The notes below the pieces were generated by a model, which worked only from the letters and a program-made list of their open reading frames with translations, had not been told where the DNA came from and searched no databases. From contig PCXQ01000007.1 in the NCBI GenBank assembly GCA_002794035.1, positions 1,785 through 65,784 of the forward strand: DNA of 64,000 nucleotides, given 5' to 3'. The position numbers were made by a program, and so were the translations under genes. Every line of letters begins with the position of its first letter. Positions within the stretch are counted from its first letter, which is position 1. This DNA comes from Candidatus Yanofskybacteria bacterium CG10_big_fil_rev_8_21_14_0_10_36_16 (lineage in GTDB: Bacteria; Patescibacteriota; Minisyncoccia; 2-02-FULL-40-12; IGHO2-01-FULL-4-A). Shown in pieces: positions 8,809-61,646 of the stretch.

Positions 8809-8839
8809 TATAATTTTTATTCAATATTAATTAAAATAT

Positions 8840-9371: not shown

Positions 9372-9734
9372 TTAATTGCCGCCACGCAACACACTAACAA
9401 CCAAATTTACAAATCCTTGTCCTATAAAAATAACTGCAAGGCCTATTATGGCATATTTTAACATATCCATACCCTGTTTAAATTTTTGGGGATTACCTCC
9501 TGCGGTAAACATCCTAACACCAGCAATAATGATAACAATAATTGATATTGGAATTGATAATGTTACCAACCAAGTTCCAATTGTCTTTATTAATTCTTCA
9601 AAACTGCCGTAGCCAACAAAGTCAGGAAGTTGTGCATATGCATTATTTACAGCAAAAATACTTATAAAAAGCATTGGTATTATTGCAAAAAATAAAGCTT
9701 TTGATTTTGTTGGCATAATTGTTGTACTTAACAA
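9372..9734 (-). CDS. VirB2/TrbC-like pilin-like protein, paralog 6
   Basis: Signal peptide ending in AYAQ, then IIVIIIAGVRMFTAGGNPQKFKQG loop and a second helix. Confidence 0.45.
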   Translation of the reverse strand: MLSTTIMPTKSKALFFAIIPMLFISIFAVNNAYAQLPDFVGYGSFEELIKTIGTWLVTLSIPISIIVIIIAGVRMFTAGGNPQKFKQGMDMLKYAIIGLAVIFIGQGFVNLVVSVLRGGN

Positions 9735-9753
9735 TTAAAAATTGAAAATTATT
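9735..9753. repeat. AT-rich 19-mer TTAAAAATTGAAAATTATT (copy 1 of 2), candidate promoter/operator of pilin genes
   Basis: Exact 19-nt match to 11375-11393, both immediately upstream (minus-strand sense) of pilin-like genes. A degenerate third copy lies at 11409-11426. Confidence 0.5.
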
Positions 9754-9774
9754 TAAAAATTACGAAATTAATTT

Positions 9775-26441: not shown

Positions 26442-26477
26442 CTTAAACGTTTTTATAACCAACAAAACCAAGCCTTG

Positions 26478-26551
26478 TGGGCATGGGTGGACTCGAACCA
26501 CCGACCCCGGCTTTATAAGAGCCGTGCTCTAACCAGCTGAGCTACATGCCC
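26478..26551 (-). tRNA. tRNA-Ile (anticodon UAU)
   Basis: Reverse complement folds as GGGCATG/CATGCCC acceptor stem, anticodon stem CGGCT/AGCCG with loop CUUAUAA (U33-UAU-A37), and T-loop GGTTCGAGTCC. Confidence 0.7.
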
Positions 26552-26669
26552 CTCGTTTAGTACATATTCTATTATTTTAAAACAAAATAGTCAATTTTTT
26601 GTCTTTTAATTTTAAAAATTCGAACCTATGTGTTACTATTGTAGTAGAAATAACTCATTCTTATTTATA

Positions 26670-27356
26670 ATGCACAAGAAAGATAAAGAAAAAACAAGAG
26701 CCAGACAACTAAGAAGCCGCGGGGGTTCTATCAAAGAGATTGCTAGAAAATTAAGTGTTTCTCAAAGCAGTGTGAGTACATGGGTCAGAGATATAAACTT
26801 AACCCAAAACCAAATAAATTTTTTAAAACACAAAGGACATTTAAAAGAAGTTATTAAAAAAAGAATTCAGACAAGATTAAAAAATGAAAAAAATAAAAGA
26901 AGAAACATAATCAATAATCACAAAACCCTATTCCCCAATTACAAAACAACTAACGATAACCTCTTAATAATAGGAACTGTACTTTATTGGGCAGAAGGAA
27001 CTAAAAGCGACAAAAGTCGTATGTTTAAATTTTCCAACAGCGATCCCCACATGATAAAGATCATGATAAATTTCTTAAAAAAAATATGTAGAATTCCCAA
27101 AAATAGACTCAGAGGACATATTCATTTACACCCTCATTTGAATAATAAGGTTGCAGAAAAATATTGGTCAAAGGTATCTAAAATACCCTTAGATCAATTT
27201 TACAAAACCAGTCAATCTTTAAACAAGCGCAGCAAAAACATCAAAGATAAATTACCATATGGAACATTTAATATTGAAATTTGCTCTGTTGATTTATATC
27301 TTAAAATGTTAGCTTGGATAGAAGCACTGAAAGAAAAGACACTGCAAGAAACTTAA
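26670..27356 (+). CDS. HTH-domain protein, tRNA-adjacent paralog 1 (possible LAGLIDADG-like or homing-endonuclease-like C-terminal domain)
   Basis: N-terminal HTH (SIKEIARKLSVSQSSVSTWVRD). C-terminal domain shares LYWxEGxKS, FxNSDPxM, FLKKI..PK and WIE blocks with the ORF at 35525-36193. Start set at MHKKDKEK by alignment to the paralog. Confidence 0.5.
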   Translation: MHKKDKEKTRARQLRSRGGSIKEIARKLSVSQSSVSTWVRDINLTQNQINFLKHKGHLKEVIKKRIQTRLKNEKNKRRNIINNHKTLFPNYKTTNDNLLIIGTVLYWAEGTKSDKSRMFKFSNSDPHMIKIMINFLKKICRIPKNRLRGHIHLHPHLNNKVAEKYWSKVSKIPLDQFYKTSQSLNKRSKNIKDKLPYGTFNIEICSVDLYLKMLAWIEALKEKTLQET

Positions 27357-29926: not shown

Positions 29927-29995
29927 TGCGGACGTGGCGGAACCGGTATACGCGCTACCTTGAGGTGGTAGTGGGAGCAATCCCGTGGAGGTTCA

Positions 29996-30126
29996 CCCCG
30001 CACTTGAAAAGTTGTATATCCTAGGGCACGTGGCGGAACCGGTATACGCGCTACCTTGAGGTGGTAGTGGGAGCAATCCCGTGGAGGTTCAAATCCTCTC
30101 GTGCCCACAACCTTTCAAGTGCGGGG
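29996..30126 (+). other. intervening sequence in the tRNA-Leu T-loop: 14-bp closing stem enclosing a complete tRNA-Leu(GAG)
   Basis: Stem arms at 29996-30009 and 30113-30126 are exact reverse complements. A TTCA direct repeat lies at both junctions. tRNA-B sits between the arms. Confidence 0.6.
30024..30107 (+). tRNA. tRNA-Leu (anticodon GAG), complete copy nested inside the interrupted tRNA-Leu
   Basis: GGGCACG/CGTGCCC acceptor stem. Its body (positions 8-60) is identical to the outer tRNA: anticodon loop UUGAGGU, long variable arm, T-arm GGAGGTTCAAATCCTCT. No encoded CCA. Confidence 0.8.
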
Positions 30127-30373
30127 TTCAAATCCTCTCGTCCGCACCAGTAAGGAAATTGCAAGTTTTGAAGATTCGCCTCGCTTCGCTCGGCGGTCAA
30201 AACGTATTGCATTTTGGGCTCAAAAAGGAATTCAAGATTTAGTTTGAGAGTAAGATTTTGACCAACAAACAGCAGAAATGCTGATTTTTAATTTACAATA
30301 TTTTTCTATTGTTTTTAAGGCGTTTAAATGCTAATATCGTTTTAAGTTCCAACATCGGACAAGGAGGTTAGAA

Positions 30374-35524: not shown

Positions 35525-36193
35525 ATGCGAAAAGACAAAGAAATAGCCTTTCAATTAAGGCGTTCTGGTAAAAGTTACAAACAAATAAGCTTTGAACTTG
35601 GAGTACCACCAAGCACTCTTTCAAATTGGTTCAAAAATGAACCTTGGTCTACAGAAATAAGAGACAGTCTGGCATCCACTGAATCACTCGCCTACCCCGA
35701 AAAACTAAAAAGAGTAGTTTCTGCAATCAAAAACAAACATGCTAAACTTAATGAATTTTATAAAAAAGAAGCTTCTGTTGAATTTACAGAACTTAAAAAA
35801 AATCCTCTTTTTATGGCAGGCATAATGCTCTATTGGAGTGAAGGAGGTAAATCAACAAAAAACAGTGTATTGCGTTTTACCAACAGTGATCCTGACATGG
35901 TAAGATTATATTGTCTTTTTTTAAAAAAAATATTAAAGCTACCCAAACATAAAATAGCTACAAGATTGCTTTTATACCCTGACTCAACTGACGAACCACA
36001 AAAAAGATTCTGGAGTAGGATTATTGACATGCCCTTAGAAAATTTTAGAAAATCTATTTATATAAAGGGCAAACAGCCAAAAAACAGAAAATCTTATGGT
36101 GTTTGCAGTGTTGAAGTTTATAACCGAAAACTCATTGAAAAAATGCTAAAATGGATTGAGTTAAGTAGACAACACTTATTAAATAAATTATAA
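35525..36193 (+). CDS. HTH-domain protein, tRNA-adjacent paralog 2 (possible LAGLIDADG-like or homing-endonuclease-like C-terminal domain)
   Basis: Paralog of 26670-27356 (shared LYWSEGGKS, FTNSDPDM, FLKKILKLPK, KMLKWIE blocks). 157 nt from the divergent tRNA-Phe; its stop is 12 nt before tRNA-Gly. Confidence 0.5.
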   Translation: MRKDKEIAFQLRRSGKSYKQISFELGVPPSTLSNWFKNEPWSTEIRDSLASTESLAYPEKLKRVVSAIKNKHAKLNEFYKKEASVEFTELKKNPLFMAGIMLYWSEGGKSTKNSVLRFTNSDPDMVRLYCLFLKKILKLPKHKIATRLLLYPDSTDEPQKRFWSRIIDMPLENFRKSIYIKGKQPKNRKSYGVCSVEVYNRKLIEKMLKWIELSRQHLLNKL

Positions 36194-39490: not shown

Positions 39491-40927
39491 GTGAAGGATT
39501 TAAATTTTTTATCACCAAAAAATAAAGGATCAAAACCAAACAATACCGCGACTAAAGTCGCTACCTTTTTGGCATTCTTTGCTATTGCTTTCTCTGCTTC
39601 CCTTACTTATGTAGCATCGGAAACAAAACCAATTCAATTAAATCTCAGCCACATTGAGTGTAATTATAATAATACTGATGGTATCAATGTTCACTTTGTG
39701 GCAATAAATTTACCGGATGATGTCAGTGATTTTGGACAAGTAACCTATATAGTTAATAGTGAAGGCCGTACTGCTGAATTTACTAAGCTTTCCGGCAATA
39801 CTGCACACTACAATGATTACTTACTAGAAGTTTCTGATACATATTCTGTAACCGATGGCTATGTTGTTATTGACGGACAAACCGTACAACTTCATAATCC
39901 TAAATCTATAAAGATAACTTGTGGTGAAAATCCTACCCCTACACCAACACCAGAACCTACTCCTACTGTAATCCCTACACCTACACCTACTCCTACTGTA
40001 ATCCCTACACCTACACCTACTAGCTGCTTTTTAGAAATCACCAAAACAGTTGATCAGGAAACATCGGTTCCTGGTCAAATATTGGAATATAAATTAAATT
40101 TTGAAAATACAGGAACAACCAACTGCACAGGTGGTGGAGTAGAAATAGAAGACACATTAGTGAATGAGTTAACTTTTGTTGACCAATCTCATTCTGAAAA
40201 TGTAACTTGGGTAGGTCAAAATGAACAAACCCTTCAATGGAATGCTGGCACTCTAACCCCCGGTGAAAAAGGATGGGTTCAGTTTGACGCTCAAGTTAAC
40301 ACACCTCAAAGCTGTGGCAATTATACAATTAATAACAAAGGCAAGATTACTGCATTTGAATTGTCTTGGCAGTGGGTACTAAGTAATAACGTAGAGATAA
40401 ATATCAACAACAACTGCCCTACTTCTACACCAACTCCTACTCCTACTGTAACCCCTACTTCTACACCTACACCAACTGTTACACCTACTCCTACTGTAAC
40501 CCCTACTTCTACACCTACACCAACTGTTACACCTACTCCTACTTCTACACCTACACCAACTGTTACACCTACTCCTACTTCTACACCTAGTGGTGGAGGT
40601 GGGGGTGGTGGGGGTTTCTTCCCTCAGCCTACTCCTACACCGACACCTACTGTAACTCCTACACCTACTCCCGTTGTTCTTGGTTCAAGTACAACTGAAA
40701 AACCTAAAACAGCAACATCTAGCACAGCAACATCAAATTTGGCACAAGTTGCTGGCGTAAGCACAGGAACCGATACAATTATTGTTTCGTGGATTATAGC
40801 ATTAGTGTTCTCAACGTTATTTGCTATATATAAAACAACAGAGCAATCAAACTTAAAAGAAATCCTTAAAATTATAAAAATTCAAAAAAAGGACAAAAAT
40901 AAATTTAATTTCGCTCTCCACAACTAA
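39491..40927 (+). CDS. cell-surface protein with DUF11-like repeat domain, Pro/Thr-rich linkers and C-terminal TM anchor
   Basis: N-terminal TM/signal anchor. CFLEITKTVDQETSVPGQILEYKLNFENTGTTNCTGGGVEIEDTL is a DUF11-like block. Long (TPTPTVTP)n tracts, a Gly8 run and a C-terminal hydrophobic anchor. Confidence 0.6.
   Translation: MKDLNFLSPKNKGSKPNNTATKVATFLAFFAIAFSASLTYVASETKPIQLNLSHIECNYNNTDGINVHFVAINLPDDVSDFGQVTYIVNSEGRTAEFTKLSGNTAHYNDYLLEVSDTYSVTDGYVVIDGQTVQLHNPKSIKITCGENPTPTPTPEPTPTVIPTPTPTPTVIPTPTPTSCFLEITKTVDQETSVPGQILEYKLNFENTGTTNCTGGGVEIEDTLVNELTFVDQSHSENVTWVGQNEQTLQWNAGTLTPGEKGWVQFDAQVNTPQSCGNYTINNKGKITAFELSWQWVLSNNVEININNNCPTSTPTPTPTVTPTSTPTPTVTPTPTVTPTSTPTPTVTPTPTSTPTPTVTPTPTSTPSGGGGGGGGFFPQPTPTPTPTVTPTPTPVVLGSSTTEKPKTATSSTATSNLAQVAGVSTGTDTIIVSWIIALVFSTLFAIYKTTEQSNLKEILKIIKIQKKDKNKFNFALHN
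40425..40600 (+). repeat. in-frame tandem nucleotide repeats encoding the Pro/Thr linker
   Basis: Repeated cctac(t/a)cctact(g/t)taac/acacc units, followed by a G-rich run ggtggaggtgggggtggtggggg. A smaller PT repeat block lies at 39945-40020. Confidence 0.7.
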
Positions 40928-41977: not shown

Positions 41978-42646
41978 ATGAAAAAAAATACCAAAACAAT
42001 TATTTATTCTCTTTTAATATTTTTAGTGGTTTTAACAGCACTAAATTTTAGGTTTGTATTCTCATATTTAAATTATCAATTCAATAAGCCCAATGATGAA
42101 GCTATAAATACTGCTGCTCATACAGTAAAATACGGCGCTTATTTATTACCTGTTGTTGAAGGACCAGAAAGAGCTGTCTCTATAGCAGTGAAATCATCTA
42201 ACACAATTAAAAGCGATATTTTACTTGAAATTCCTAGATTAAGAGTAAGTGCGCCAATAATAATAGAGCCGAGCACGAACACAGATACTATCTACAAAAG
42301 ACTTGAGAATGGAGTAGTTCACTATGCTTCAACACCTATGCCGGGAGAAGCCGGAACATCTATAATTCTAGGTCATAGCTCAGCTTATCCTTGGTATCGC
42401 GGTCAATACGGATCTGTGTTTGCCTTACTCAACCAGCTTAATGCAGGAGACGTTATACAAATTCAGAATGGTAACGAGATTTTAAATTACAAGGTTGCAG
42501 GTTCGTTGGTTTTCTCACCTTTCTCTGAAGACAATTTAAAATTAGCAGAATTTGAAAGCACAGACGGATCATCTCTTGTGCTATTATCTTGCTGGCCTGT
42601 TGGAACTAATTATAAAAGAATTGCTATTAAAGCCGACCTTATTTAA
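41978..42646 (+). CDS. sortase-family transpeptidase
   Basis: N-terminal TM anchor. Catalytic His in SIILGHSS. LVLLSCWP is an (L/V)xTC-like active-site Cys motif with a conserved Arg downstream. Confidence 0.65.
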   Translation: MKKNTKTIIYSLLIFLVVLTALNFRFVFSYLNYQFNKPNDEAINTAAHTVKYGAYLLPVVEGPERAVSIAVKSSNTIKSDILLEIPRLRVSAPIIIEPSTNTDTIYKRLENGVVHYASTPMPGEAGTSIILGHSSAYPWYRGQYGSVFALLNQLNAGDVIQIQNGNEILNYKVAGSLVFSPFSEDNLKLAEFESTDGSSLVLLSCWPVGTNYKRIAIKADLI

Positions 42647-42659
42647 AAACTATTTGAAA

Positions 42660-42698
42660 TAAAACAAACCCCGCCCAGGCGGGGTTTGTTTTATTTAT
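42660..42698 (+). terminator. rho-independent terminator
   Basis: AAACAAACCCCGCCcagGCGGGGTTTGTTT perfect 14-bp stem followed by TAT. Confidence 0.7.
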
Positions 42699-42699
42699 G

Positions 42700-42894
42700 G
42701 TCCGCCCTGGTAGGCGGTTGAAATGAACTGCTTCATTTCAACCCCTGATTTTAGTGAGAATATCTGTCTCCAGACAGAGCGAGCGTTAAAAAATCAGGTA
42801 GAACATCTCCGCCGGAGGCGGAGCAGGTTCGATGCTTACGAAGAAAGCTTCATAAACTAAACGGCTCACCTAGGTGAGCCGTTTAGTTTATGTG
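42700..42894 (-). ncRNA. hairpin-rich structured region downstream of tRNA-Lys carrying a duplicate of the tRNA 3' end (candidate ncRNA or att-site remnant)
   Basis: On the minus strand: an 18-bp perfect hairpin (CATAAACTAAACGGCTCACC/GGTGAGCCGTTTAGTTTATG), a CCTGATTTT...AAAATCAGG stem enclosing CTGTCTGGAGACAG, a 12-bp hairpin GGTTGAAATGAA/TTCATTTCAACC, then CCTACCAGGGCGGAC. That last segment nearly duplicates the tRNA-Lys T-stem and acceptor 3' strand. Confidence 0.35.
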
Positions 42895-42967
42895 TCCGCC
42901 CTGTAGGATTCGAACCTACGACCCGCGGATTAAGAGTCCGTTGCTCTACCAGCTGAGCTAAGGGCGG
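42895..42967 (-). tRNA. tRNA-Lys (anticodon CUU), C1-G72 acceptor pair
   Basis: Reverse complement folds as CCGCCCT/AGGGCGG acceptor stem, D-arm GCTCAGCTGGTAGAGC, anticodon loop CUCUUAA, T-loop GGTTCGAATCC. Confidence 0.75.
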
Positions 42968-43005
42968 ATATTACCGTATTATTATGCCTTAAAATTTATT
43001 GTTTT

Positions 43006-44196
43006 TCAAGATTTTAATACGTTTTTTAACTGCTTAATAAAATAATCAATATCTTCTTTTTTAGTAAATCGACCAAGGGTAATTCTTAGATTATCTCCTG
43101 TGCCTACTGACTCGCCCTTGGCTTGATTGTGATGAGAAGCTCGAATCCATCGAATAGCTTTTAACACATGAGAGGGGTCTGCTTGTCCTGAGTTTTCCGA
43201 ACGGATTTCAGTTGAAGTACATGCTGAACCAGTTGATACCTCAACTCCTTTTTGATCTAAAATCAAAACTAACATCTCCCCATCTTTACCAGCAAAAGAC
43301 ATATTTATATTATTAGGCAATCTTTCCTTTTGACTACCATTTAATTTGCTACTAGGTATTTCATTAATAATCTTATCTATTGTGTAATCTCTCAACTTCT
43401 TTAATCTATTATTTTCTTTTTCTTTTATACTATCAGTAATTTCAAGTGCCTTGGCAAAACCTGCAATTAAAGCAGTATTCTCCGTACCAGGTCTTAATCC
43501 TCTTTCTTGTGAACCCCCAAACATTATTGGTTGAATAGTTGTTCCTCGTCTTATATATAAGCACCCTGCTCCTTTTGGCCCATATATTTTAGAACCATTA
43601 AAAGACATCGAGTCGATTCCTAATTTTTGAACATTTAAATCTAAATATCCAACAGCCTGTGTAGCATCAGTATGAAAAATTATTTGTTTATTGAAATTTT
43701 TAATAATTTTAGCAATTTGCTGTATAGGTTGAATGGTGCCTATTTCATTATTGGCATACATTATAGAAACCAAGACGGTATTAGGATTAAGAGCTTTTTT
43801 TACATCTTCAGGGTTAATCAATCCGCCCTCATTAACATTTACACAGGTTATTTTAAAACCTTCTTGTTCAAGCTGTTTACAGGCGTTTAAAACTGCATGA
43901 TGCTCAATTTTTGTAGTTATTATATGCTTACCCTTTTTTTTATTTGCCCTAGCTGCGCCTAGGACAGCTAAATTGCACGATTCTGTTCCTGAACCTGTAA
44001 AAATAATTTCATCTGCCCCAGCATTTAAAATCTTGGCTATTTTTTCCCTTGAATTATTAATTATTTTTTTTGCCCCTTTTCCTGAAGCATATAAAGACGA
44101 AGCATTTCCAAATGCTTTTTCGTATTTATCCATTTCCCGTTTAACCCTAGGATCAAGCGGGGTGGCTGCTGCATTGTCTAAATAAATTCTTTTCAT
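43006..44196 (-). CDS. cysteine desulfurase (NifS/IscS family, PLP-dependent)
   Basis: N-terminal IYLDNAATT-like start, PLP-lysine region SFNGSKIYGPKGAGCLY, and the catalytic-Cys loop STGSACTS. Confidence 0.85.
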   Translation of the reverse strand: MKRIYLDNAAATPLDPRVKREMDKYEKAFGNASSLYASGKGAKKIINNSREKIAKILNAGADEIIFTGSGTESCNLAVLGAARANKKKGKHIITTKIEHHAVLNACKQLEQEGFKITCVNVNEGGLINPEDVKKALNPNTVLVSIMYANNEIGTIQPIQQIAKIIKNFNKQIIFHTDATQAVGYLDLNVQKLGIDSMSFNGSKIYGPKGAGCLYIRRGTTIQPIMFGGSQERGLRPGTENTALIAGFAKALEITDSIKEKENNRLKKLRDYTIDKIINEIPSSKLNGSQKERLPNNINMSFAGKDGEMLVLILDQKGVEVSTGSACTSTEIRSENSGQADPSHVLKAIRWIRASHHNQAKGESVGTGDNLRITLGRFTKKEDIDYFIKQLKNVLKS

Positions 44197-56429: not shown

Positions 56430-57524
56430 CTAGGAACGCAATGGCATTATAAGATAAAGAAAACCATCTTCTTTGTCTGGGACCATTAACAATGGGCTCC
56501 CGTCTCCTGTGTGTTTTATTATCACATTTTCAGTGCTTATATTTTTTAAACCATCAAGAAGGTAGTTATAATTAACAGTAACTTCAAATGGATTGTTTTT
56601 TAGTTCAGAACTTAGAGATGCAACCATATTACCTTTATCATTGTTTTGAGCTATTATTTCAGTTTTATTATTTGTAACCTTTAATTTAATGTCATATATG
56701 CTTGATGAAAAAAAACCAGCAGTTCTTATACTTCTTTCAAAATCACCTTTTTTTAACCTAAGCAAAGAAACAATTTTATCTGGAATTATTTTTTTATAAT
56801 CTGGATATCTACCGTCAACCAATCGGGATACAAGTTCAAAATCGTTACCATATGCCATGATTTGATTCTCGGCTATTACAATATTTATCTTACCATTATA
56901 AGTTTCAGCTATTCTCATTAACTCTACAGCAGTTTGCCTGGGCAATATTAAACTCCCCTTATAACTTCCGCCTTCAATATTATCAACAATTTTTTCAGAC
57001 AACCTAAAACTATCAGTTGAAGCAAACTCTATTTTTTTATCACCGACATTTATAAAAACACCGGCTAATTCAGGTCTTGTATCTGAAGGCAAAACTGAAT
57101 CTATAACACTGGCGAGTGATTGTTTTAATTCTTGAGGATTAAAAGATACTTCATTTTCTTTTTTAATTTTAGGAATAATCGGAAAATCTTCAGTACTATA
57201 ACCTAGTAATTTTGTTTTATAATCTTCTGAATCAATTTTTAATGTATTGCCGTCTGTTACTAAAGATATTTTTTCATCTTTTATATTAGAAACCAGTCCT
57301 GAGAATAACCTCGCTGGAACAGCAACTTCACCATCTTTAGCAATTTTAGCTCCCAACCAACAATTTATACCTAGTTCAAGATTTGTAGCTGAAATTTTAA
57401 CATTGTTTTTCTCTGTCTTTAATTTTACCGTGCTTAAAATTGGCAAAGAAACATTTTTAGAAATTATCCTTTCTAAAATCCTGAGTGCATTATTTAATTT
57501 TTCCCTATTAACGGTAATCTGCAT
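56430..57524 (-). CDS. dnaN: DNA polymerase III beta sliding clamp
   Basis: MQITVNREKLNNALRILERIISKN..LPILSTVKLK N-terminus, three-domain length (364 aa), and position directly downstream of dnaA. Confidence 0.9.
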   Translation of the reverse strand: MQITVNREKLNNALRILERIISKNVSLPILSTVKLKTEKNNVKISATNLELGINCWLGAKIAKDGEVAVPARLFSGLVSNIKDEKISLVTDGNTLKIDSEDYKTKLLGYSTEDFPIIPKIKKENEVSFNPQELKQSLASVIDSVLPSDTRPELAGVFINVGDKKIEFASTDSFRLSEKIVDNIEGGSYKGSLILPRQTAVELMRIAETYNGKINIVIAENQIMAYGNDFELVSRLVDGRYPDYKKIIPDKIVSLLRLKKGDFERSIRTAGFFSSSIYDIKLKVTNNKTEIIAQNNDKGNMVASLSSELKNNPFEVTVNYNYLLDGLKNISTENVIIKHTGDGSPLLMVPDKEDGFLYLIMPLRS

Positions 57525-57769
57525 AATTATATTATTATATATTTAATTAAATATATTATTATTATTATACCTGTTTATATCTGTATAACTCTTTTTAGTG
57601 TTTAAATACAATACTAAATGATGTGTGATGATTACTAATAACCTGTGGAAAATATATTTATAAAAAATGGATAATTGGTACATGGTCGGTTATCACCAAA
57701 CATAGAAACTCAATATCAACATAGTTATCAGACGTGTTATACACATAATCTCAACTTAATTTACCTTAA
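57525..57769. promoter_or_regulatory. candidate oriC region (dnaA-dnaN intergenic): AT-rich with DnaA-box-like 9-mers
   Basis: TGTGGAAAA (57644-57652), TTATCACCA (57690-57698), TTATCAGAC (57725-57733) and TTATACACA (57737-57745) each differ by 1-2 nt from TTATCCACA/TGTGGATAA. Flanked by long A/T tracts. Confidence 0.45.
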
Positions 57770-59140
57770 TTAGGCATCAAAAGTTTGGTATATTTTTTCC
57801 TTTATTAATGTTAATTCTTGCTTTGTTCTTTGATCAGCGTCTTCTTCTGCTTTTATTTTTTCATATCCATGAATAATTGTAGAGTGATCTCTGTTTCCAA
57901 GCTTTGATCCTATCTCAGGGAAAGAATATTTTGTCTCCTCTCTTAATAAAAACATGCAAACCTGTCTTGGTCTCACAACTTCTTTTTTACGGCTCCTTTT
58001 TACAATATCATTTATTGAAACATCATAAAAATCAGATACCGCTTTAAGTATTGTCTGGTGGGTGGTTTTCTTAAATGGAGTACTTAAGTAAGCAGCAAGA
58101 AGTTTTTTAACTTCCTTAAAGTTTGGTATTTTGTTGTAGATTTGACTAAAAGCATAAATTCTATTTAGTGCTCCCTCTAACTCTCTAACATTTCTTTGTA
58201 TGTTTGTTGCAATATAGGACAACGATTGATCGTCTATATCAAAATCTTTTTGTGTTGCTTTTAACTTTAATATAGCAAGACGTGTTTCAAAATCAGGTAT
58301 ACCAATATCTGCTATCATTCCACCTTCAAATCTTGACCTAAGTCTTTCTTCTAATGTTGGTATGGCACTAGGAGGCCTGTCTGAAGATAATATTATTTGT
58401 TTATTTTTACTATAAAGCTCATTAAATGTTGAGAATATTATTTCTTGAGTTTTTTCTTTTCCAGCTACAAACTGAATATCATCTATTATTAGTAAATCTA
58501 AAAGACAATATTTTTGTTTTAAATCCTCTATTGTTTTGTTTTTTAATGAATCTAAAATTTCAGCGGTGATTTTCTCTGCTGGTGTGTAAAGTATTTTACA
58601 ACTGGGATCTTTTGAGAATATTTTGTTACCAATTGAGTGTAAAAGATGAGTTTTTCCTAAACCAACTCCGCCATAAAGAAATAAAGGGTTATAAGTTTTA
58701 CCTAGATTTTTTACAACTGCTAAACTTGCTGCGTGAGCCAATTCATTGTTTGAACCAACTATGAAGAAATCGAAAGTATATCTTTTGTTTAGGTTGTTAG
58801 TCTTGTTAACCTCTAAATCTGCAGACTCCTTTTTAACAGATTCATTTTTTATAAATTGAGCAAAGTCGCCTTTTTGAATTCTTTCAGCTAAATTGCCACC
58901 TCCGATAGTGTATTTTATTTCTCTTACTTCGGGCTTAACATCTCCAATTATTTTAAAAATTGTTTTATTAAACTTCTTTTCCAGCCACTCTTTAGCAAAA
59001 CCATTGGGGACATTAATTAAAATAGCAGTATCACTACTTGAAACAATTGATGTGTTTTTAAACCAGGTAGTAAAATTTGCCTTAGATAAAGACAATTCCA
59101 TCTCATCTAAAACAATTTTCCACAATTCTTGATTTGTCAT
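57770..59140 (-). CDS. dnaA: chromosomal replication initiator protein DnaA
   Basis: AAA+ Walker A GGVGLGKTHLLHSIGN, the RSRFEGGMIADI box, and the C-terminal DNA-binding signature IGSKLGNRDHSTIIHGYEKI. Confidence 0.95.
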   Translation of the reverse strand: MTNQELWKIVLDEMELSLSKANFTTWFKNTSIVSSSDTAILINVPNGFAKEWLEKKFNKTIFKIIGDVKPEVREIKYTIGGGNLAERIQKGDFAQFIKNESVKKESADLEVNKTNNLNKRYTFDFFIVGSNNELAHAASLAVVKNLGKTYNPLFLYGGVGLGKTHLLHSIGNKIFSKDPSCKILYTPAEKITAEILDSLKNKTIEDLKQKYCLLDLLIIDDIQFVAGKEKTQEIIFSTFNELYSKNKQIILSSDRPPSAIPTLEERLRSRFEGGMIADIGIPDFETRLAILKLKATQKDFDIDDQSLSYIATNIQRNVRELEGALNRIYAFSQIYNKIPNFKEVKKLLAAYLSTPFKKTTHQTILKAVSDFYDVSINDIVKRSRKKEVVRPRQVCMFLLREETKYSFPEIGSKLGNRDHSTIIHGYEKIKAEEDADQRTKQELTLIKEKIYQTFDA

Positions 59141-59515
59141 AAGTTTAAGATAATATCTAAACTCTATCTCTGTTTCAAGTGATATTTTAACGTTATATTA
59201 ATTATTTTTAAAACAGATTGTATTATTATGGACCGAGTTTAGTATTCAGCTTTGTTCTTATTATAGTCAGTTTTTTAAACTCCCGATACAAATTAGTTGA
59301 TAACCTGTTAATATATTGGGTATAAGTAATAAAATAATATATAAAACGTTTAAAATATTATAATGGAAACAGTTTTTTAAAGATTAAAGTATTTATTTTG
59401 TAAATTAAACAAAAACCGCAGTAAAAAACATGATTTAAACCTGCGGTTTTGTGTAATAAAATTTAAGGTAGTTCATTTTGACTAAAATGGTTTTTTAATA
59501 TAATATAGGTGTATT
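59141..59515. promoter_or_regulatory. dnaA-rpmH intergenic region: dnaA and rpmH promoters, possible second oriC module
   Basis: AT-rich 375-bp spacer between divergent dnaA and rpmH. Contains a TTGACT...TATAAT-like pair near 59478-59504 and a hairpin AAACCGCAG(n20)CTGCGGTTT at 59412-59449. Confidence 0.35.
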
Positions 59516-59662
59516 ATGACAAGATCAAAAGCGACGACTTATCGTCCCAAAAAAGAAAAAAGGAAAAAGAAACACGGTTTCCTGGCTAGAAAGAAATCAA
59601 ATAACGGTAAAAAAGTATTAAGCAGGAGAATGAGAAAGGGCAGGAAGAGATTAACGGTGTAG
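59516..59662 (+). CDS. rpmH: 50S ribosomal protein L34
   Basis: 48-aa [51 protein letters not shown] matches the L34 consensus (..HGFRARM.T..GR.VL.RRR.KGRKRL). AGGTG RBS 5 nt upstream. Missing from the ORF track only because it is under 60 aa. Confidence 0.9.
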
Positions 59663-59715
59663 TAGAGGGTGTAAAATCCAAACTTTTTATATAACAGTTT
59701 GGATTTTACACCCTC

Positions 59716-60066
59716 ATGTCTTTACCGATAAATCTTAGATTAAAAAAGAATTCAGACTTTCAGAAAGTTATAAAAAATGGAAAATCCGTTAACGGGGAGT
59801 TTTTATTTATTAAATTTGTTAAAAATGAATTAGACCATTCAAGATTCGGCATAGTTGTTTCATCAAAAGTATCAAGCAAAGCAACTGCAAGAAATAAAAT
59901 TAAAAGGAGAATCTCTGAATCAATTTCACCTATTTACAAAAAACAAAAAACAAATCTTGATATTGTTGTTATTTCTATTCCGCGTATCTTAGAAAAAACC
60001 CAAAAAGAAATCAAGAGTAAATTGGATGAAATACTAAACAAAGTTTTTAGTCAATACAAAAAATAA
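59716..60066 (+). CDS. rnpA: ribonuclease P protein component
   Basis: RLKKNSDFQKVIKNGKSVNGEFLFIKFVKN and the basic RNR-like region KATARNKIKRRI. Canonical position after rpmH. Confidence 0.85.
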   Translation: MSLPINLRLKKNSDFQKVIKNGKSVNGEFLFIKFVKNELDHSRFGIVVSSKVSSKATARNKIKRRISESISPIYKKQKTNLDIVVISIPRILEKTQKEIKSKLDEILNKVFSQYKK

Positions 60067-60090
60067 AACAATTATTTTTAAAAAAAATAA

Positions 60091-60312
60091 ATGAAAAAAA
60101 TATTATTTAAATTCATAGATTTTTATAAAGCAATGTTTTCTCCTTTTATTCACACGCTTTATCCCTTGAATGGTTGTAAATTTTATCCAACTTGCTCAGA
60201 GTATTCGCATGATGTTATTGAAAAGCACGGAGTTATAAAAGGCGTAGGAAAGTCCGTATGGAGAATTTTAAGATGTAACCCTCTTTCCCAAGGCGGGATA
60301 GACCAAGCGTGA
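60091..60312 (+). CDS. yidD: membrane protein insertion efficiency factor YidD
   Basis: FYPTCSEYSHDVIEKHGVIKGVGKSVWRILRCNPLSQGGID is the YidD/hemolytic-domain signature. Confidence 0.85.
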   Translation: MKKILFKFIDFYKAMFSPFIHTLYPLNGCKFYPTCSEYSHDVIEKHGVIKGVGKSVWRILRCNPLSQGGIDQA

Positions 60313-60433
60313 TAATTTGTAGTAGAGTATTAAAATAACATAATTATTTTAATTAAGAATTTCCGATGTTTTAAATTGAGACTCTTAGATAAATAAATCA
60401 AGGAACTCAAAAGATTGTCGGGATTTAGACACA

Positions 60434-61153
60434 GTGTCTTTTTTATTTAACGAACTTCTTTTTAGACCAATATTTAATATTTTAGTTTTTCTATACGACG
60501 TCATACCGGGCAATGATTTTGGTGTAGCAATAATAATATTAACAATATTAATTAAGCTCATATTTTTCCCTCTCACAGCAAAGTCGTTGGTTGCACAGAG
60601 AAAATTATCCGAACTTCAACCTAAAGTAAAAGAACTACAGGAAAAATATAAAAACGATCGTCAAAAATTAGGAGCAGAAACGATGGCGTTATATAAACAG
60701 CATCAAATAAACCCTCTTAGTGGTTGCTTCCCTATTTTGATTCAATTGCCGGTTTTATTTGCCTTGTTTAAGGCTTTAAATATTGTTTTTGAGCCTGAAA
60801 GCCTGGATTTTGTATATGGTTTTATTTCAAATCCGGGAGCTATAAAAGAAACTTCTTTTTACTTTTTAAACCTATCGGTTAACAACCCTACCCTTGCTAT
60901 TACAGCTGGTGTTTTGCAATATTTCCAAATTAAAGTATCAAATACAAACAGGCCTAAACAAGGCGATGCCGTACAAGACCCTACTCAAAAGTCTTTAAAT
61001 CAAATGACAAAGCAAATGTTGTATTTTTTCCCGATTATGATTATAATTATAGCTTGGAATTTCCCTACAGGCCTAGTTCTTTATTGGGTTGTAACTACCG
61101 GACTTTCAATTGTTGAACAAAAGATTATAAATAAAAAACACTTTAGTAATTAA
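60434..61153 (+). CDS. yidC: membrane protein insertase YidC (short form)
   Basis: About 239 aa with five TM helices. The conserved region LSGCFPILIQLPVLFALF, and position after rnpA-yidD. Confidence 0.85.
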   Translation: MSFLFNELLFRPIFNILVFLYDVIPGNDFGVAIIILTILIKLIFFPLTAKSLVAQRKLSELQPKVKELQEKYKNDRQKLGAETMALYKQHQINPLSGCFPILIQLPVLFALFKALNIVFEPESLDFVYGFISNPGAIKETSFYFLNLSVNNPTLAITAGVLQYFQIKVSNTNRPKQGDAVQDPTQKSLNQMTKQMLYFFPIMIIIIAWNFPTGLVLYWVVTTGLSIVEQKIINKKHFSN

Positions 61154-61154
61154 A

Positions 61155-61646
61155 ATGAATAATGAATCAGACAATTTAGTTGTTGATTTAACCAAAAAAC
61201 TCTTAGGTTTTTTGGGTTTTGATAAAAATAGTGAGGTTGAAGCTCATAATAATGACGATGGTGTTTTAGTTTCCATAACCTCAAATGATAAAATGGGATT
61301 ATTGATTGGCAAAAACGGACAAAACATAAATGCTATAGAACATCTTATAAGGACACTAATTAACAAAAAACAGTCTAGTGAGCAATTAGACAAGTTTACC
61401 CCAATAAGATTTTCACTAGATATAAATGATTATAAAAAAATAAGATCTCAACAAGTTATAAATACTGCCCGAGATGTTGCTAATAGGGTTTCGCAAAACA
61501 GAAGGTCAGAAGCAATGTATCCTATGAATTCTTATGAAAGAAGGCTTATACATTCCGAACTTGCTTCATATAATGACATTGAAACTGAAAGTGTCGGAGA
61601 AGAACCTAGACGAAGGGTTGTGATAAAACCTACTGTTGAAATATAA
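61155..61646 (+). CDS. jag: Jag/KhpB-like RNA-binding protein (KH plus R3H domains)
   Basis: R3H motif YPMNSYERRLIHSELASYNDIETESVGEEPRRRVVI. Canonical position after yidC. Confidence 0.8.
   Translation: MNNESDNLVVDLTKKLLGFLGFDKNSEVEAHNNDDGVLVSITSNDKMGLLIGKNGQNINAIEHLIRTLINKKQSSEQLDKFTPIRFSLDINDYKKIRSQQVINTARDVANRVSQNRRSEAMYPMNSYERRLIHSELASYNDIETESVGEEPRRRVVIKPTVEI

What the first reader, a model, noticed from the sequence alone, without database searches (positions are those of the whole stretch)
42700..42967. Hairpin-dense 195-nt region downstream of tRNA-Lys with a duplicated tRNA 3' end
Immediately 3' of tRNA-Lys (minus strand) lie a perfect 18-bp hairpin, a 9-bp stem enclosing a palindromic CTGTCTGGAGACAG, a 12-bp hairpin, and then CCTACCAGGGCGGAC. 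That last segment matches the tRNA's own T-stem/acceptor 3' strand (CCTACAGGGCGGAC) with one inserted C. A direct repeat of a tRNA 3' end is the classic footprint of site-specific integration (attL/attR). Here the enclosed segment is only about 190 nt and fully structured, so it may be a miniature integrated element remnant or a tRNA-linked structured ncRNA.
Basis: seen in the sequence. Interest (0 to 1): 0.5.

Follow-up and report, generated by a model that had tools for sequence, protein, structure and literature searches.

The report
Debris of tRNA-Lys gene turnover
The hairpin-rich DNA behind this tiny bacterium's lysine tRNA gene is probably not a new RNA gene: it reads as a terminator plus leftovers of the tRNA (a decayed mirror copy and what looks like the old 3' end), left by rearrangements that repeatedly hit tRNA genes in this bacterial group.

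Summary
tRNA-Lys(CUU) (42967-42895, minus strand) is followed by a perfect 42-nt palindrome, further perfect hairpins, and a second copy of its last 14 nt (CCTAC[C]AGGGCGGAC, 42714-42700), which runs on into CCA. The copy is unlikely to be chance: it gives the only two hits in 64 kb (targeted shuffle p about 4e-5; unbiased alignment p about 0.02).

The stretch does not look like one structured RNA or a recognisable mobile element. The tRNA has a promoter-like site and ends at the palindrome, an intrinsic-terminator-like hairpin whose core also follows NifS in the closest relative. Beyond it lie a decayed mirror-image tRNA copy (plus strand 42784-42841), fold-back hairpins, the probably displaced older 3' end with CCA, and the convergent sortase gene's terminator.

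I found no promoter-like site, Rfam family, convincing gene, integrase or second copy. Syntenic relatives have a different spacer or none.

The theme recurs. In this window an intact tRNA-Leu(GAG) sits inside the T-loop of the ancestral tRNA-Leu(GAG). Other CPR genomes show tRNAs flanked by their own fragments, usually broken in or next to the T-loop.

Best reading: scars of T-arm-directed insertion or fold-back duplication. A classical integrase remnant is the main rival.

The parts
42981..43009 (-). Promoter-like site TTGAAA-17 nt-CATAAT. It overlaps the NifS stop codon, and its -10 element ends 13 nt upstream of the tRNA.
   Evidence: 10 of 12 consensus matches, the best site in 42300-43400. 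L165 and L010 have an equivalent TTGAAA...TAnnnT directly upstream of their outer tRNA 5' fragment (read).
42895..42967 (-). Functional tRNA-Lys(CUU). No CCA is encoded; the discriminator A is followed by CA.
   Evidence: ARAGORN; Rfam tRNA 69.8 bits, E = 3e-15.
42851..42892 (.). Perfect 42-nt palindrome (T1). It is the probable intrinsic, bidirectional terminator of the tRNA-Lys unit and the centre of a longer, decayed inverted repeat.
   Evidence: repeat I1 (21-nt arms, 100% complementary). One search scores it as terminator-like (19 pairs plus a T-rich tail). The core AAACGGCTCA...TGAGCCGTTT also forms the hairpin about 15 nt after the NifS stop in the closest relatives L181 and L190.
42784..42841 (+). 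Decayed mirror-image (antisense) copy of tRNA-Lys. It retains GGTAGAACA (D arm), CTCCGCC-GGA-GGCGGAG at the anticodon-arm position (the 7-bp hairpin 42807-42823) and AGGTTCGATGCTTAC (T arm). Support is moderate.
   Evidence: repeats I7 and I23, lie in register with the palindrome centre. The register-constrained alignment gives p = 0.016 against shuffles and 0.006 against genomic controls. Alignment to the tRNA-Lys genes of L009 and L182 gives p = 0.002 and 0.016. An unconstrained alignment to the window's own tRNA is not significant (p = 0.11-0.13). The same layout at tRNA-Cys in L093 gives p < 0.0005.
42744..42798 (.). Perfect 9-bp stem (42744-42752 with 42790-42798) enclosing the small palindrome CTGTCTGGAGACAG (42764-42777). 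Its right arm overlaps the D-arm region of the mirror copy.
   Evidence: repeat I15. No function is assigned.
42716..42743 (.). Perfect 12-bp hairpin GGTTGAAATGAA-GCAG-TTCATTTCAACC. Its first arm resembles the end of the T-stem plus the T-loop (GGTTCGAAT). I read the second arm as a fold-back copy inserted into the T-loop of the old gene copy.
   Evidence: repeat I5. One search scores it as terminator-like on the + strand. The reading as a T-loop derivative is inference from the sequence. Comparable hairpins interrupt tRNA fragments in L165, L166, L010 and L093.
42698..42714 (-). Distal copy of the tRNA 3' end, CCTACCAGGGCGGA-CCA. I read it as the displaced native 3' end of an earlier tRNA-Lys gene.
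   Evidence: repeat D3; for significance. L165 has the positional equivalent GGGCGGACCATA followed by a terminator.
42657..42696 (.). Perfect 19-bp hairpin flanked by A- and T-runs (T2). It is the terminator shared with the convergent sortase gene, which ends at 42646.
   Evidence: repeat I2. It has the same form as the terminators after tRNA-Val, tRNA-Phe and tRNA-Arg in this window.

Best explanation
The region is a composite scar, not a gene.

The working unit appears to be short: a promoter-like site (43009-42981), tRNA-Lys(CUU) (42967-42895) and the palindromic terminator T1 (42892-42851). What lies between T1 and the sortase terminator T2 (42850-42697) is most likely untranscribed debris from earlier versions of the same tRNA gene:
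- a decayed copy lying as the mirror image of the live gene across T1;
- a T-arm-to-3'-end fragment that still carries CCA and abuts T2;
- hairpins that look like fold-back copies of neighbouring sequence.

Most likely mechanism (inferred, not shown). DNA breaks or replication stalling at the natural hairpins of the gene (the T-arm and the terminator) were repaired by template switching or fold-back synthesis, or by insertion of a replacement copy. This gave one inverted and one direct partial duplication whose junction lies in or beside the T-loop. Selection then kept one complete tRNA and the terminators while the other copies decay.

The same process would explain three other observations: the intact tRNA-Leu(GAG) lying inside the T-loop of its ancestral copy in this window, the self-fragments around tRNAs in other CPR genomes, and the opposite orientation of tRNA-Lys in one relative.

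Shown: the anatomy, the non-randomness of the direct repeat, the ancestral status of the outer tRNA-Leu copy, and the recurrence in other genomes. Inferred: that the segment is untranscribed and non-functional, that the distal Lys copy is the native end, and the fold-back mechanism.
For: Anatomy and significance of the repeat.

Separate transcription unit:
- promoter-like and terminator-like sites;
- the T1 core is also the hairpin after NifS in L181 and L190.

Mirror copy:
- in register with the palindrome (repeats I7 and I23, p about 0.006-0.016, p = 0.002-0.02);
- the identical layout at tRNA-Cys in L093 (p < 0.0005).

Distal copy as the older end:
- L165 has GGGCGGACCATA plus a terminator at the same position;
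- in L165 and L010 the promoter-like site directly precedes the outer 5' fragment.

Parallel case at tRNA-Leu(GAG):
- outer copy 29928-29994 plus 30127-29/30-30149 is interrupted in the T-loop by 132 nt that hold a complete inner tRNA;
- the rejoined outer copy is a perfect tRNA-Leu;
- the composite folds as a cloverleaf within a cloverleaf;
- the orthologue in L169 is intact, lies 12 nt after rplS and ends in CCA.

Other CPR loci with self-fragments: L009, L010, L093, L165, L166.

Relatives without duplicates (L184, L182), and tRNA-Lys inverted in L182.

Nothing points to a gene or element:
- Rfam finds only the tRNA;
- no other copy in the window;
- no promoter-like site in the spacer;
- no integrase or transposase domain in any of the roughly 55 window ORFs scanned;
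- viral scans were negative.
Against: - The mirror copy in the window is only moderately significant. An unconstrained alignment to the window's own tRNA gives p = 0.11-0.13.
- The mirror copy aligns better to the other anticodon-stem type of tRNA-Lys. That fits replacement by a different allele better than a simple self-duplication.
- Four perfectly paired hairpins are unexpected in freely decaying DNA. They may be recent or may do something, for example act as extra terminators or protein-binding sites.
- In L165 and L166 the relic-bearing leader and trailer are 81-88% identical, while NifS third codon positions are only 53% identical. They also show compensatory changes. There, at least, such architecture is constrained or was recently exchanged.
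- No close relative (>90% identity) was available to show a precise empty site.
- Relatives without a duplication (L182, L184) lack an encoded CCA. The claim that the native Lys gene carried CCA therefore rests only on position.
- No expression data were available.
Confidence: 0.55

Rival explanations
1. Remnant of classical site-specific integration. A tyrosine-integrase element with an attP that mimics the tRNA-Lys T-arm and 3' end integrated by crossover in or near the T-loop. Its copy now completes the tRNA (attL). The native 3' end was pushed to attR. Later deletion removed the integrase and cargo, leaving about 180 nt. The segment could still be mobilised in trans.
For: - There is a direct repeat of the tRNA 3' portion, and the distal copy carries the native-looking CCA plus terminator.
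- In other CPR loci the repeat starts inside the T-loop. In L009 it is a perfect 26-nt repeat running 9 nt past the tRNA end, which is typical of att identity blocks.
- The T-loop is a known crossover sublocation for integrases in tRNA genes (own knowledge: Williams 2002, Nucleic Acids Res).
- Partial tRNA genes made by integrating elements are well documented (PMC9897764).
Against: - No integrase, excisionase or any convincing gene lies in the segment, and no integrase or transposase domain was hit in any window ORF scanned.
- There are no matches in viral contigs.
- It does not explain the mirror-image tRNA copy centred on the terminator.
- It does not explain the tRNA-Leu(GAG) case. There the interrupted gene is not repaired by the insert's end; a whole second tRNA flanked by 16-bp inverted repeats is supplied instead.
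- T1 inside the 'element' is homologous to the NifS terminator of a relative, so it is resident DNA.
Confidence: 0.2
2. A new kind of T-loop-directed insertion. Small hairpin-ended DNA cassettes carry a replacement tRNA or tRNA 3' end and insert into the DNA encoding the T-loop of the cognate tRNA gene. The process may start with endonuclease cleavage of tRNA genes, for example by the HTH plus LAGLIDADG-like proteins encoded next to tRNAs here. The tRNA-Lys spacer would be an older, partly decayed insertion of this type.
For: - tRNA-Leu(GAG): a 132-nt insert with 16-17-nt perfect terminal inverted repeats, TTC on both sides and a complete tRNA as cargo, sitting exactly in the T-loop of the ancestral gene.
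- Breakpoints in or next to the T-loop also occur in L009, L093 and L165.
- Nested 5' and 3' fragments surround complete tRNAs in L165, L166 and L010.
- L172 has a genuine LAGLIDADG ORF between rplS and tRNA-Leu(GAG) (E = 2.9e-10).
- The window has two paralogous HTH proteins 15-65 nt from tRNAs. Apart from HTH proteins, the family profile's only matches to solved structures are weak ones to I-DmoI, over a LAGLIDADG-like motif.
Against: - No two inserts share sequence, so no element family is demonstrated.
- The Lys spacer has no terminal inverted repeats at its boundaries and carries no whole tRNA.
- The endonuclease assignment is weak: E = 0.06-0.18, and the structure model has pLDDT 56 with no fold match.
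- Neither paralogue is adjacent to tRNA-Lys or tRNA-Leu(GAG).
- Adjacency to tRNAs rests on three genes, two of them orthologous.
Confidence: 0.15
3. A functional RNA. The segment is transcribed, either by read-through of T1 or from its own start. It then acts as a structured 3' trailer-derived sRNA, or offers an alternative CCA-bearing 3' strand that can pair with the tRNA's 5' acceptor strand.
For: - Predicted folding is strong (z = -4.9).
- In the minimum-energy fold of the whole region, the tRNA 5' acceptor strand pairs with the distal AGGGCGG.
- CCA is kept in both the window and L165.
- The L165 and L166 flanks are constrained, with G-U-compatible changes on the tRNA-sense strand.
Against: - The segment lies beyond a 19-bp terminator with a T-rich tail, and no promoter-like site was found in it on either strand.
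- There is no Rfam family even at E up to 10.
- The spacer sequence is unrelated to those of L165 and L166 and is absent in L182 and L184.
- L166 has lost the CCA.
- The stems are perfect DNA palindromes without G-U pairs, so nothing indicates selection at RNA level.
Confidence: 0.07
4. Chance resemblance in an intergenic region rich in terminators.
For: - The unbiased local alignment of the tRNA to its downstream flank is only p about 0.02.
- AT-rich terminator arms resemble each other in this genome.
Against: - The 14-mer with at most 1 edit gives p about 4e-5 and is unique in 64 kb.
- CCA follows it.
- The same arrangement is found in relatives and at another tRNA.
Confidence: 0.03

Closest known systems
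attL/attR duplications of tRNA 3' ends left by integrative elements (tyrosine integrases, T-loop crossover class), and the 'partial tRNA genes' they create (Williams 2002, own knowledge; PMC9897764)
   Same: There is a direct repeat of the tRNA segment from the T-arm to the 3' end. The distal copy keeps the native downstream context. One complete tRNA is preserved.
   Different: The enclosed DNA is only about 180 nt, with no integrase or other convincing gene. Part of it is resident DNA (the terminator shared with a relative). It contains a mirror copy of the tRNA. The parallel tRNA-Leu case supplies a whole tRNA rather than repairing the interrupted one.
Inverted plus direct duplications made by template switching at inverted repeats (quasipalindrome template-switch mutation in bacteria; fold-back inversions and DUP-TRP/INV-DUP structures in eukaryotes; own knowledge)
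   Same: The order is direct copy, palindrome centre, inverted copy, direct copy. The junctions lie at natural hairpins (the terminator and the T-arm). Short palindromic insertions occur at breakpoints.
   Different: I know of no description of this for tRNA genes. The two terminators flanking the copies differ. The mirror copy may derive from a different tRNA-Lys allele. The mechanism is inferred from anatomy only.
MITEs and other small non-autonomous transposons
   Same: The segment is small, non-coding and hairpin-rich. The tRNA-Leu insert has 16-17-nt terminal inverted repeats and a 3-nt duplication (TTC).
   Different: There are no terminal inverted repeats at the Lys boundaries, no other copies in the window, and no sequence shared among inserts in different genomes.
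Introns in tRNA genes: group I introns in Patescibacteria tRNAs (PMC13011429) and archaeal bulge-helix-bulge introns at non-canonical positions
   Same: Intervening sequence lies inside a tRNA gene of a CPR bacterium. The tRNA-Leu insert sits in the T-loop, a position known for archaeal introns (own knowledge).
   Different: There is no group I Rfam hit, and the insert is too short. The Patescibacteria introns that paper newly reports are at position 35/36 in the anticodon loop. By my reading of the fold, the junction forms a 3 x 6 internal loop rather than a bulge-helix-bulge motif. At tRNA-Lys the proximal gene is already complete, so nothing needs splicing.
Bidirectional intrinsic terminators between convergent genes
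   Same: Both T1 (42851-42892) and T2 (42657-42696) are GC-cored hairpins flanked by an A-run and a T-run, like the terminators after other tRNAs in the window.
   Different: T1 is unusually long and perfect, and its symmetry extends in decayed form into the tRNA on one side and a tRNA-like relic on the other.

Membership tests
Integrated element at a tRNA gene (attL-element-attR) | Direct repeat of the tRNA 3' portion bounding the inserted DNA | tested here: met
   CCTACAGGGCGGAC at 42907-42894 and CCTACCAGGGCGGAC at 42714-42700. These are the only two hits in the window; p about 4e-5.
Integrated element at a tRNA gene (attL-element-attR) | Integrase (tyrosine or serine recombinase) gene inside or beside the element | tested here: not met
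   The 180-nt segment has no convincing gene; its only ORF of 40 aa or more (42723-42860, 45 aa) was not tested. No recombinase or transposase domain was hit in any of the roughly 55 window ORFs scanned with Pfam. The rest of the 218-kb contig was not available.
Integrated element at a tRNA gene (attL-element-attR) | Presence/absence polymorphism with a precise empty site in relatives | tested here: inconclusive
   L184 and L182 have a single tRNA-Lys without duplicates. They are distant (NifS about 57% identical) and differ in spacing or orientation, so no precise boundary can be read. No closer genome was found.
MITE / small DNA transposon | Terminal inverted repeats at the element boundaries plus a target-site duplication | tested here: not met
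   For the Lys segment, one search found no inverted repeat pairing its two ends. The inverted repeats present are internal hairpins. The tRNA-Leu insert does have 16-17-nt terminal inverted repeats and a TTC duplication.
MITE / small DNA transposon | Multiple copies in the genome | tested here: not met
   blastn of 42640-42900 against the window finds only itself and generic terminator similarity. Only 64 kb of the genome was searched.
Described structured RNA family (Rfam) | Match to a covariance model at or near its gathering score | tested here: not met
   Only the tRNA passes. The other hits at E up to 10 score far below gathering, and most fall on the terminator hairpins.
Independent ncRNA gene | Own promoter, and conservation or covariation in relatives | tested here: not met
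   No promoter-like site lies in 42697-42850 on either strand. No homologous spacer was found in L165, L166, L182 or L184. Expression cannot be tested with these tools.
Intrinsic terminator | GC-containing stem followed by a T-rich tail, placed at the end of a transcription unit | tested here: met
   T1 is scored as terminator-like: 19 pairs, 8 of them GC, tail AAGCTTTCTT. T2 is a 19-bp stem with a GC core and a TTTGTTTTATTT tail. Actual termination was not measured.
tRNA pseudogene (mirror copy, + strand 42784-42841) | Significant colinear similarity to a tRNA without a functional cloverleaf | tested here: inconclusive
   p = 0.002-0.02 against relatives' tRNA-Lys and p = 0.006-0.016 in the register-constrained test. 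But p = 0.11-0.13 in unconstrained alignment to the window's own tRNA, and no Rfam tRNA hit at E up to 10.
tRNA intron (group I or bulge-helix-bulge) | The interrupted gene needs removal of the insert; ribozyme core or bulge-helix-bulge motif at the junctions | tested here: not met
   The proximal tRNA-Lys is complete. There is no group I hit. For tRNA-Leu the junction is a 3 x 6 internal loop next to a 15-bp helix, by my reading of the fold.

The most novel reading that the evidence does not exclude
tRNA genes of CPR/Patescibacteria may be recurrent targets of an undescribed insertion process directed at the T-loop. The process would place a replacement tRNA, or a replacement 3' end, inside the resident gene (a tRNA within a tRNA). 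It would leave the old halves as leader and trailer, which in some lineages are then kept under constraint. It may be driven by a widespread family of HTH plus LAGLIDADG-like proteins encoded next to tRNA genes. The tRNA-Lys spacer would be one decayed product of this process.
Probability: 0.2. Interest if true: 0.75.

Novelty: new variant of a known kind. Interest (0 to 1): 0.45.

Why it matters
On its own, the tRNA-Lys segment is mostly genomic debris around an ordinary promoter-tRNA-terminator unit. It should not be annotated as an ncRNA or a mobile element.

The pattern it belongs to is more interesting. In a streamlined CPR genome, where most of the nine tRNA genes seen in this window are the only copy of their anticodon, at least two tRNA loci carry pieces of earlier versions of themselves. 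One of them is a complete tRNA lying in the T-loop of its ancestral copy. Similar arrangements turn up in unrelated CPR lineages.

If this reflects a specific process that breaks or invades tRNA genes at the T-loop and replaces them, three things follow:
- It would be a new route of tRNA gene turnover and allele replacement.
- It would be a source of annotation errors (partial or nested tRNAs) and of assembly breaks at palindromes.
- It would be a possible reason why these organisms carry long, structured pre-tRNA leaders and trailers.

The nested tRNA-Leu also gives a directly testable substrate for how RNase P and RNase Z handle a tRNA within a tRNA.

Tried and rejected
1. Rfam at gathering and at E up to 10: only the tRNA passes. 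Most weak hits fall on the terminator hairpins.

2. Collection scans with NifS in genome contigs and metagenome contigs. The source contig itself was not returned.

3. Sortase homologues P0065 and P0009: synteny is not conserved, so they were uninformative.

4. Viral-contig scans for the tRNA-Lys 3' end, the 12-bp hairpin and the T1 core all found nothing. The tRNA-Leu pattern hit only an unrelated phage tRNA-Leu.

5. Contig breaks next to NifS in several assemblies looked at first like strain variation or an invertible segment. I rejected this. All contigs are 100% identical to the window up to the break, and L189 folds back at the palindrome. L181 and L190 likewise end within or just past their own version of the hairpin. 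This points to an assembly artefact of the palindrome.

6. A search for a shared sequence family among the spacers of the window, L009, L010, L093, L165 and L166 found none beyond L165 with L166. A recurring GAGCGA-rich motif remained anecdotal.

7. Bulge-helix-bulge or group I intron readings of the tRNA-Leu insert were rejected (PMC13011429).

8. A tRNA-Val-like 'fragment' downstream of tRNA-Val(tac) lies inside the FtsH coding region and was dismissed as chance.

9. Structure prediction of the HTH protein 35525-36193 gave pLDDT 56, and Foldseek found nothing meaningful. Homologues from the representative search could not be used for modelling.

10. A first attempt to test the mirror copy in L093 failed because the palindrome centre was set wrongly. 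It was redone correctly.
Full report
**Source and setting.** The window comes from a Candidatus Yanofskybacteria (CPR/Patescibacteria) metagenome-assembled genome. Its sortase, L19 and NifS proteins are the NCBI proteins of 'Candidatus Yanofskybacteria bacterium CG10_big_fil_rev_8...', on a 218-kb contig. An independent JGI contig is identical across the locus. G+C content is 35.7%, and nine scattered tRNA genes are present, none encoding CCA. The finding lies between two convergent genes: a sortase (+, ending at 42646) and the cysteine desulfurase NifS (-, ending at 43006).

**Checking the observation.**
- tRNA-Lys(CUU) occupies 42967-42895 on the minus strand (Rfam 69.8 bits).
- It is followed by a perfect 42-nt palindrome (42892-42851), longer than the 18 bp reported.
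- Then come a 7-bp hairpin (42823-42807), a 9-bp stem (42798-42790 with 42752-42744) enclosing CTGTCTGGAGACAG, and a 12-bp hairpin (42743-42716).
- Last is CCTACCAGGGCGGAC (42714-42700), which equals the tRNA's own CCTACAGGGCGGAC plus one C.

The distal copy also runs on into CCA (42700-42698). It is followed after one base by a second perfect 19-bp hairpin with an A-run and a T-run (42696-42657), which is the terminator of the convergent sortase gene. The 14-mer with at most one edit occurs only at these two places in the window. It turned up in 2 of 50,000 shuffles of the downstream 400 nt. A test that does not pre-select the segment gives p about 0.02. The 154-nt core folds better than shuffles on both strands (z = -4.9 and -3.8). 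All stems are perfect DNA palindromes, so they say nothing about strand or RNA-level selection.

**What is probably functional.** A sigma-70-like site, TTGAAA-17-CATAAT (43009-42981), overlaps the NifS stop codon. It would start transcription a few bases before the tRNA. The 42-nt palindrome scores as an intrinsic terminator. In the closest NifS relatives found (64% identity; L181 and L190), the NifS stop is followed after about 15 nt by a hairpin with the same core, AAACGGCTCA...TGAGCCGTTT. The palindrome is therefore resident DNA of this locus, not imported. Other tRNAs in the window end with the same kind of A-run, GC hairpin and T-run terminator. The live unit is thus probably promoter, tRNA and T1. 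What remains to be explained is the 154 nt between T1 and the sortase terminator T2. That stretch has no promoter-like site on either strand, no Rfam match even at E up to 10, and only a 45-aa ORF (42723-42860, +) that I did not test further. It has no other copy in the window.

**A mirror copy of the tRNA.** Two of the inverted repeats found (I7 and I23) pair pieces of the tRNA with pieces of the spacer, in register with the centre of the palindrome.
- I7 pairs 42825-42839 with 42903-42917.
- I23 pairs 42797-42805 with 42942-42950.

Read on the plus strand, 42784-42841 is ...TCAGGTAGAACA-TCTCCGCCGGAGGCGGAGC-AGGTTCGATGCTTACGA. That is a D-arm, a collapsed anticodon arm and a T-arm in the right order. 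Alignment to tRNA-Lys(CUU) genes of relatives gives p = 0.002 (L009) and 0.016 (L182). A register-constrained alignment of the two arms gives p = 0.016 against shuffles and 0.006 against genomic controls. An unconstrained alignment to the window's own tRNA is not significant (p = 0.11-0.13). I rate this as moderately supported.

The layout is much clearer at tRNA-Cys in an unrelated CPR contig, L093. There the order is tRNA, perfect AT-rich palindromic terminator, inverted copy of the T-arm (p < 0.0005), then a direct T-arm-like piece and a direct copy of the 3' end.

**The distal copy.** I found five loci with the NifS / tRNA-Lys / sortase synteny, through sortase and NifS homologues.
- L165 (NifS 59% identical to the window) has a complete tRNA-Lys. 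Its 57-nt spacer is unrelated to the window's. It is followed by GTCCTACTGGGC[hairpin]GGTGGGCGGACCA-TA and then the terminator. The GGGCGGACCATA-plus-terminator block aligns with the window's.
- L166 has the same spacer as L165 and a distal GTCCTACTGGGCGGAC without CCA.
- L165 and L166 also carry an upstream 5' fragment of the tRNA, CCGCCCATAGC[hairpin]TCAATTGGCC. In L165 the promoter-like site sits directly before that outer fragment, not before the complete inner tRNA. L010 (Uhrbacteria, tRNA-Cys) shows the same. The outer pieces there are therefore the native gene and the complete tRNA is the newcomer.
- In the window the promoter-like site directly precedes the complete tRNA. Its 5' part thus sits at the native position, and only the 3' part is duplicated.
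- L184 has a single tRNA-Lys 45 nt from the terminator and no duplicate. L182 has a single tRNA-Lys in the opposite orientation, 4 nt from the NifS stop.

The locus is evidently unstable across this clade. The tRNA-Lys genes also fall into two anticodon-stem types, GCUCC/GGAGA and ACGGA/UCCGC. These do not follow the relatedness of the flanks: L165 and L166 differ in type.

**A clean parallel in the same window.** Two bases after the rplS stop codon starts a tRNA-Leu(GAG), GCGGACG...GGAGGTTC (29928-29994). Its remainder, AAATCCTCTCGTCCGCACCA, follows only at 30130-30149. In between are 132 nt (29995-30126):
- ACCCCGCACTTGAAAAG;
- 12 nt;
- a complete second tRNA-Leu(GAG) (30024-30107, no CCA);
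- 4 nt;
- CTTTCAAGTGCGGGG.

TTC is present at both junctions. With the insert and one TTC copy removed, the outer gene is a perfect tRNA-Leu(GAG) with CCA. The composite folds as a cloverleaf whose T-loop carries a 15-bp helix topped by a second cloverleaf. Inner and outer copies are identical except for two flipped base pairs in the acceptor stem. In the relative L169, rplS is followed after 12 nt by an uninterrupted tRNA-Leu(GAG) that ends in CCA, then a terminator. The CCA-bearing outer copy is therefore the ancestral gene and the inner one an insertion. In L172 a genuine LAGLIDADG ORF (Pfam E = 2.9e-10) sits between rplS and tRNA-Leu(GAG).

**The pattern in other CPR genomes.** Among the 60 tRNAs in the first 168 fetched loci, further CPR examples were found.
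- L009 tRNA-Lys has a perfect 26-nt repeat starting inside the T-loop and running 9 nt past the gene, around about 90 nt of hairpins.
- L093 and L010 are described above.

Breakpoints lie in or next to the T-loop in the tRNA-Leu case, L009, L093 and L165. Fragments are often interrupted by short GC-rich hairpins whose sequences differ between genomes. The inserts share no sequence with each other.

**Interpretation.** The simplest account of the tRNA-Lys segment is that it is not a unit at all. It is a terminator, a decayed inverted copy of the gene, fold-back hairpins, the probable former 3' end of the gene, and the neighbour's terminator. For example, the 12-bp hairpin's first arm, GGTTGAAAT, looks like the end of the T-stem plus the T-loop, and its second arm is its complement.

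The order is direct copy, palindrome, inverted copy, direct copy, with junctions at natural hairpins. That is what template switching or fold-back repair at inverted repeats produces (established for quasipalindromes in bacteria and for fold-back and DUP-TRP/INV-DUP structures in eukaryotes; own knowledge). I therefore favour it as the mechanism. A replacement allele may have been involved, because the relic resembles the other tRNA-Lys type.

The classical alternative is an integrase-borne element that crossed over in the T-loop and was later deleted. It explains the direct repeat and L009 well. It does not explain the mirror copies, the resident origin of T1, the absence of any recombinase domain hit in the window ORFs scanned, or the tRNA-Leu structure.

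A functional RNA is unlikely for the window's segment. It cannot be dismissed for the L165/L166 architecture. There the leader and trailer are 81% and 88% identical, while NifS third codon positions are 53% identical. The leader-trailer helix also shows a U-A to C-G exchange and A-to-G changes that remain paired only as G-U on the tRNA-sense strand.

**A lead on the cause.** The window encodes two paralogous proteins of about 220-240 aa (26628-27356 and 35525-36193; 33% identical), each 15-65 nt from a tRNA gene. The orthologue of the second lies next to the same tRNA-Gly in L169.
- They have an N-terminal transposase-type HTH (Pfam HTH_23 and HTH_SB, E about 1e-3 to 1e-4, below the curated cut-offs for these proteins).
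- They belong to a large family: 3,337 cluster representatives at E up to 1e-3.
- Apart from HTH proteins, the family profile's only matches to solved structures are weak ones to the homing endonuclease I-DmoI (E = 0.06-0.16), over the motif AG.MLYWGEGDK...R.SNsDP...F..FL.
- hhalign lines this motif up with the LAGLIDADG motif of the L172 endonuclease (E = 0.18).

This is suggestive only. The structure model was poor (pLDDT 56) and gave no fold match. If these proteins cut tRNA-gene DNA, they would supply the breaks that the scar model needs.

**Comparison with the known, and verdict.** The segment works like, and in part is, the familiar footprint of insertion at a tRNA gene. It fails the membership tests for an integrative element (no integrase), a MITE (no terminal repeats, single copy), an Rfam RNA, and a tRNA intron. 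Nakagawa et al. (PMC13011429) describe group I introns in Patescibacteria tRNAs in the anticodon loop, newly at position 35/36. Nothing of that kind is here. Partial tRNA genes caused by integrating elements are known (PMC9897764). My limited literature searches turned up no description of tRNAs nested in the T-loop of their own ancestral copy, or of mirror copies across palindromic terminators.

I classify the finding as a new variant of a known kind. The tRNA-Lys segment itself is of modest interest. The recurrent, T-loop-centred remodelling of tRNA genes in CPR bacteria, best shown by the tRNA-Leu 'tRNA within a tRNA' at 29928-30149, is the part worth following up.

Noticed in passing
window 29928-30149 (+): A tRNA within a tRNA. 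The ancestral tRNA-Leu(GAG) starts 2 nt after rplS and ends in CCA. It is interrupted in its T-loop by 132 nt that carry a complete second tRNA-Leu(GAG) (30024-30107, no CCA) between perfect 16-17-nt inverted repeats, with TTC on both sides. The two copies differ only by two flipped acceptor-stem base pairs. The orthologue in L169 is uninterrupted.
   Followed up: yes
window 4925-4960 (-), downstream of tRNA-Leu(tag) 4980-5064: An antisense T-loop piece (AGGATTTGAAC) and a 17-nt tRNA-Leu 5' fragment, GCCCCCGTGGTGGAAAT. Its acceptor strand differs from that of the live gene (GGGGGTG). They lie between the tRNA and its terminator and look like another relic-bearing tRNA locus.
   Followed up: partly
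window 26628-27356 (+) and 35525-36193 (+); L169 2046-2732: Paralogous proteins of about 220-240 aa lie 15-72 nt from tRNA genes. They have a transposase-type HTH and a C-terminal domain with a LAGLIDADG-like motif (AG.MLYWGEGDK). They belong to a large family (3,337 cluster representatives). Matches to I-DmoI and to a LAGLIDADG ORF are weak (E = 0.06-0.18).
   Followed up: partly
L172 815-1495 (+): A free-standing LAGLIDADG_3 endonuclease ORF (E = 2.9e-10) is inserted between rplS and tRNA-Leu(GAG) in a relative. As called, the ORF runs into the 5' half of the tRNA and stops in the anticodon loop.
   Followed up: partly
L165 6690-6945 (-) and L166 2096-2330 (-): tRNA-Lys is nested between 5' and 3' fragments of an older tRNA-Lys. 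The leader and trailer are 81% and 88% identical between the two genomes, while NifS third codon positions are 53% identical. The leader-trailer helix shows compensatory and G-U-compatible changes. The hairpin that interrupts the 5' fragment differs in sequence but is a hairpin in both. Yet the two inner tRNAs have entirely different anticodon stems.
   Followed up: partly
L182 4196-4269: In this Yanofskybacteria genome the tRNA-Lys(CUU) between NifS and sortase is in the opposite orientation, 4 nt from the NifS stop codon, with no duplicates.
   Followed up: partly
L009 217-409; L093 740-1044; L010 60-620: Other CPR lineages (Parcubacteria, Uhrbacteria and an unassigned contig) show tRNA-Lys or tRNA-Cys genes flanked by their own fragments. 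L009 has a perfect 26-nt repeat from the T-loop to 9 nt past the gene. L093 has a mirror T-arm copy across a palindromic terminator. L010 has an outer 5' fragment directly after the promoter-like site.
   Followed up: partly
window 42880-43000 compared with L002-L004, L186-L189; also the ends of L181 and L190: Seven contigs from four independent samples, all from the same organism, break around the tRNA-Lys gene and its palindrome while remaining 100% identical to the window. One of them folds back at the palindrome. The contigs of the closest relative likewise end within or just past the homologous hairpin. Perfect palindromes appear to fragment these assemblies.
   Followed up: yes
all nine tRNA genes of the window: None encodes CCA, but in seven of the nine the discriminator base is followed by CA. 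This may be a 3'-processing signal.
   Followed up: no
window 26477-26551 (-): A tRNA-Ile with anticodon TAT (UAU), an unusual way for a bacterium to read AUA. It lies 35 nt upstream of tRNA-Val(tac).
   Followed up: no
window 7469-11304 (-): A run of six consecutive genes with T4SS-pilin/TrbC-like domains. Five are small (120-150 aa). The sixth is 509 aa with the pilin domain at its N-terminus.
   Followed up: no
window 56430-61646: Replication-origin neighbourhood: dnaN and dnaA on the minus strand, then rnpA (RNase P protein), yidC and a KH/R3H (Jag-like) gene on the plus strand.
   Followed up: no
window 39491-40927 (+): A DUF11-domain protein with long Pro/Thr-rich repeats and a run of eight glycines, upstream of the CAP-domain and sortase genes. 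It is probably a sortase-anchored surface protein.
   Followed up: no
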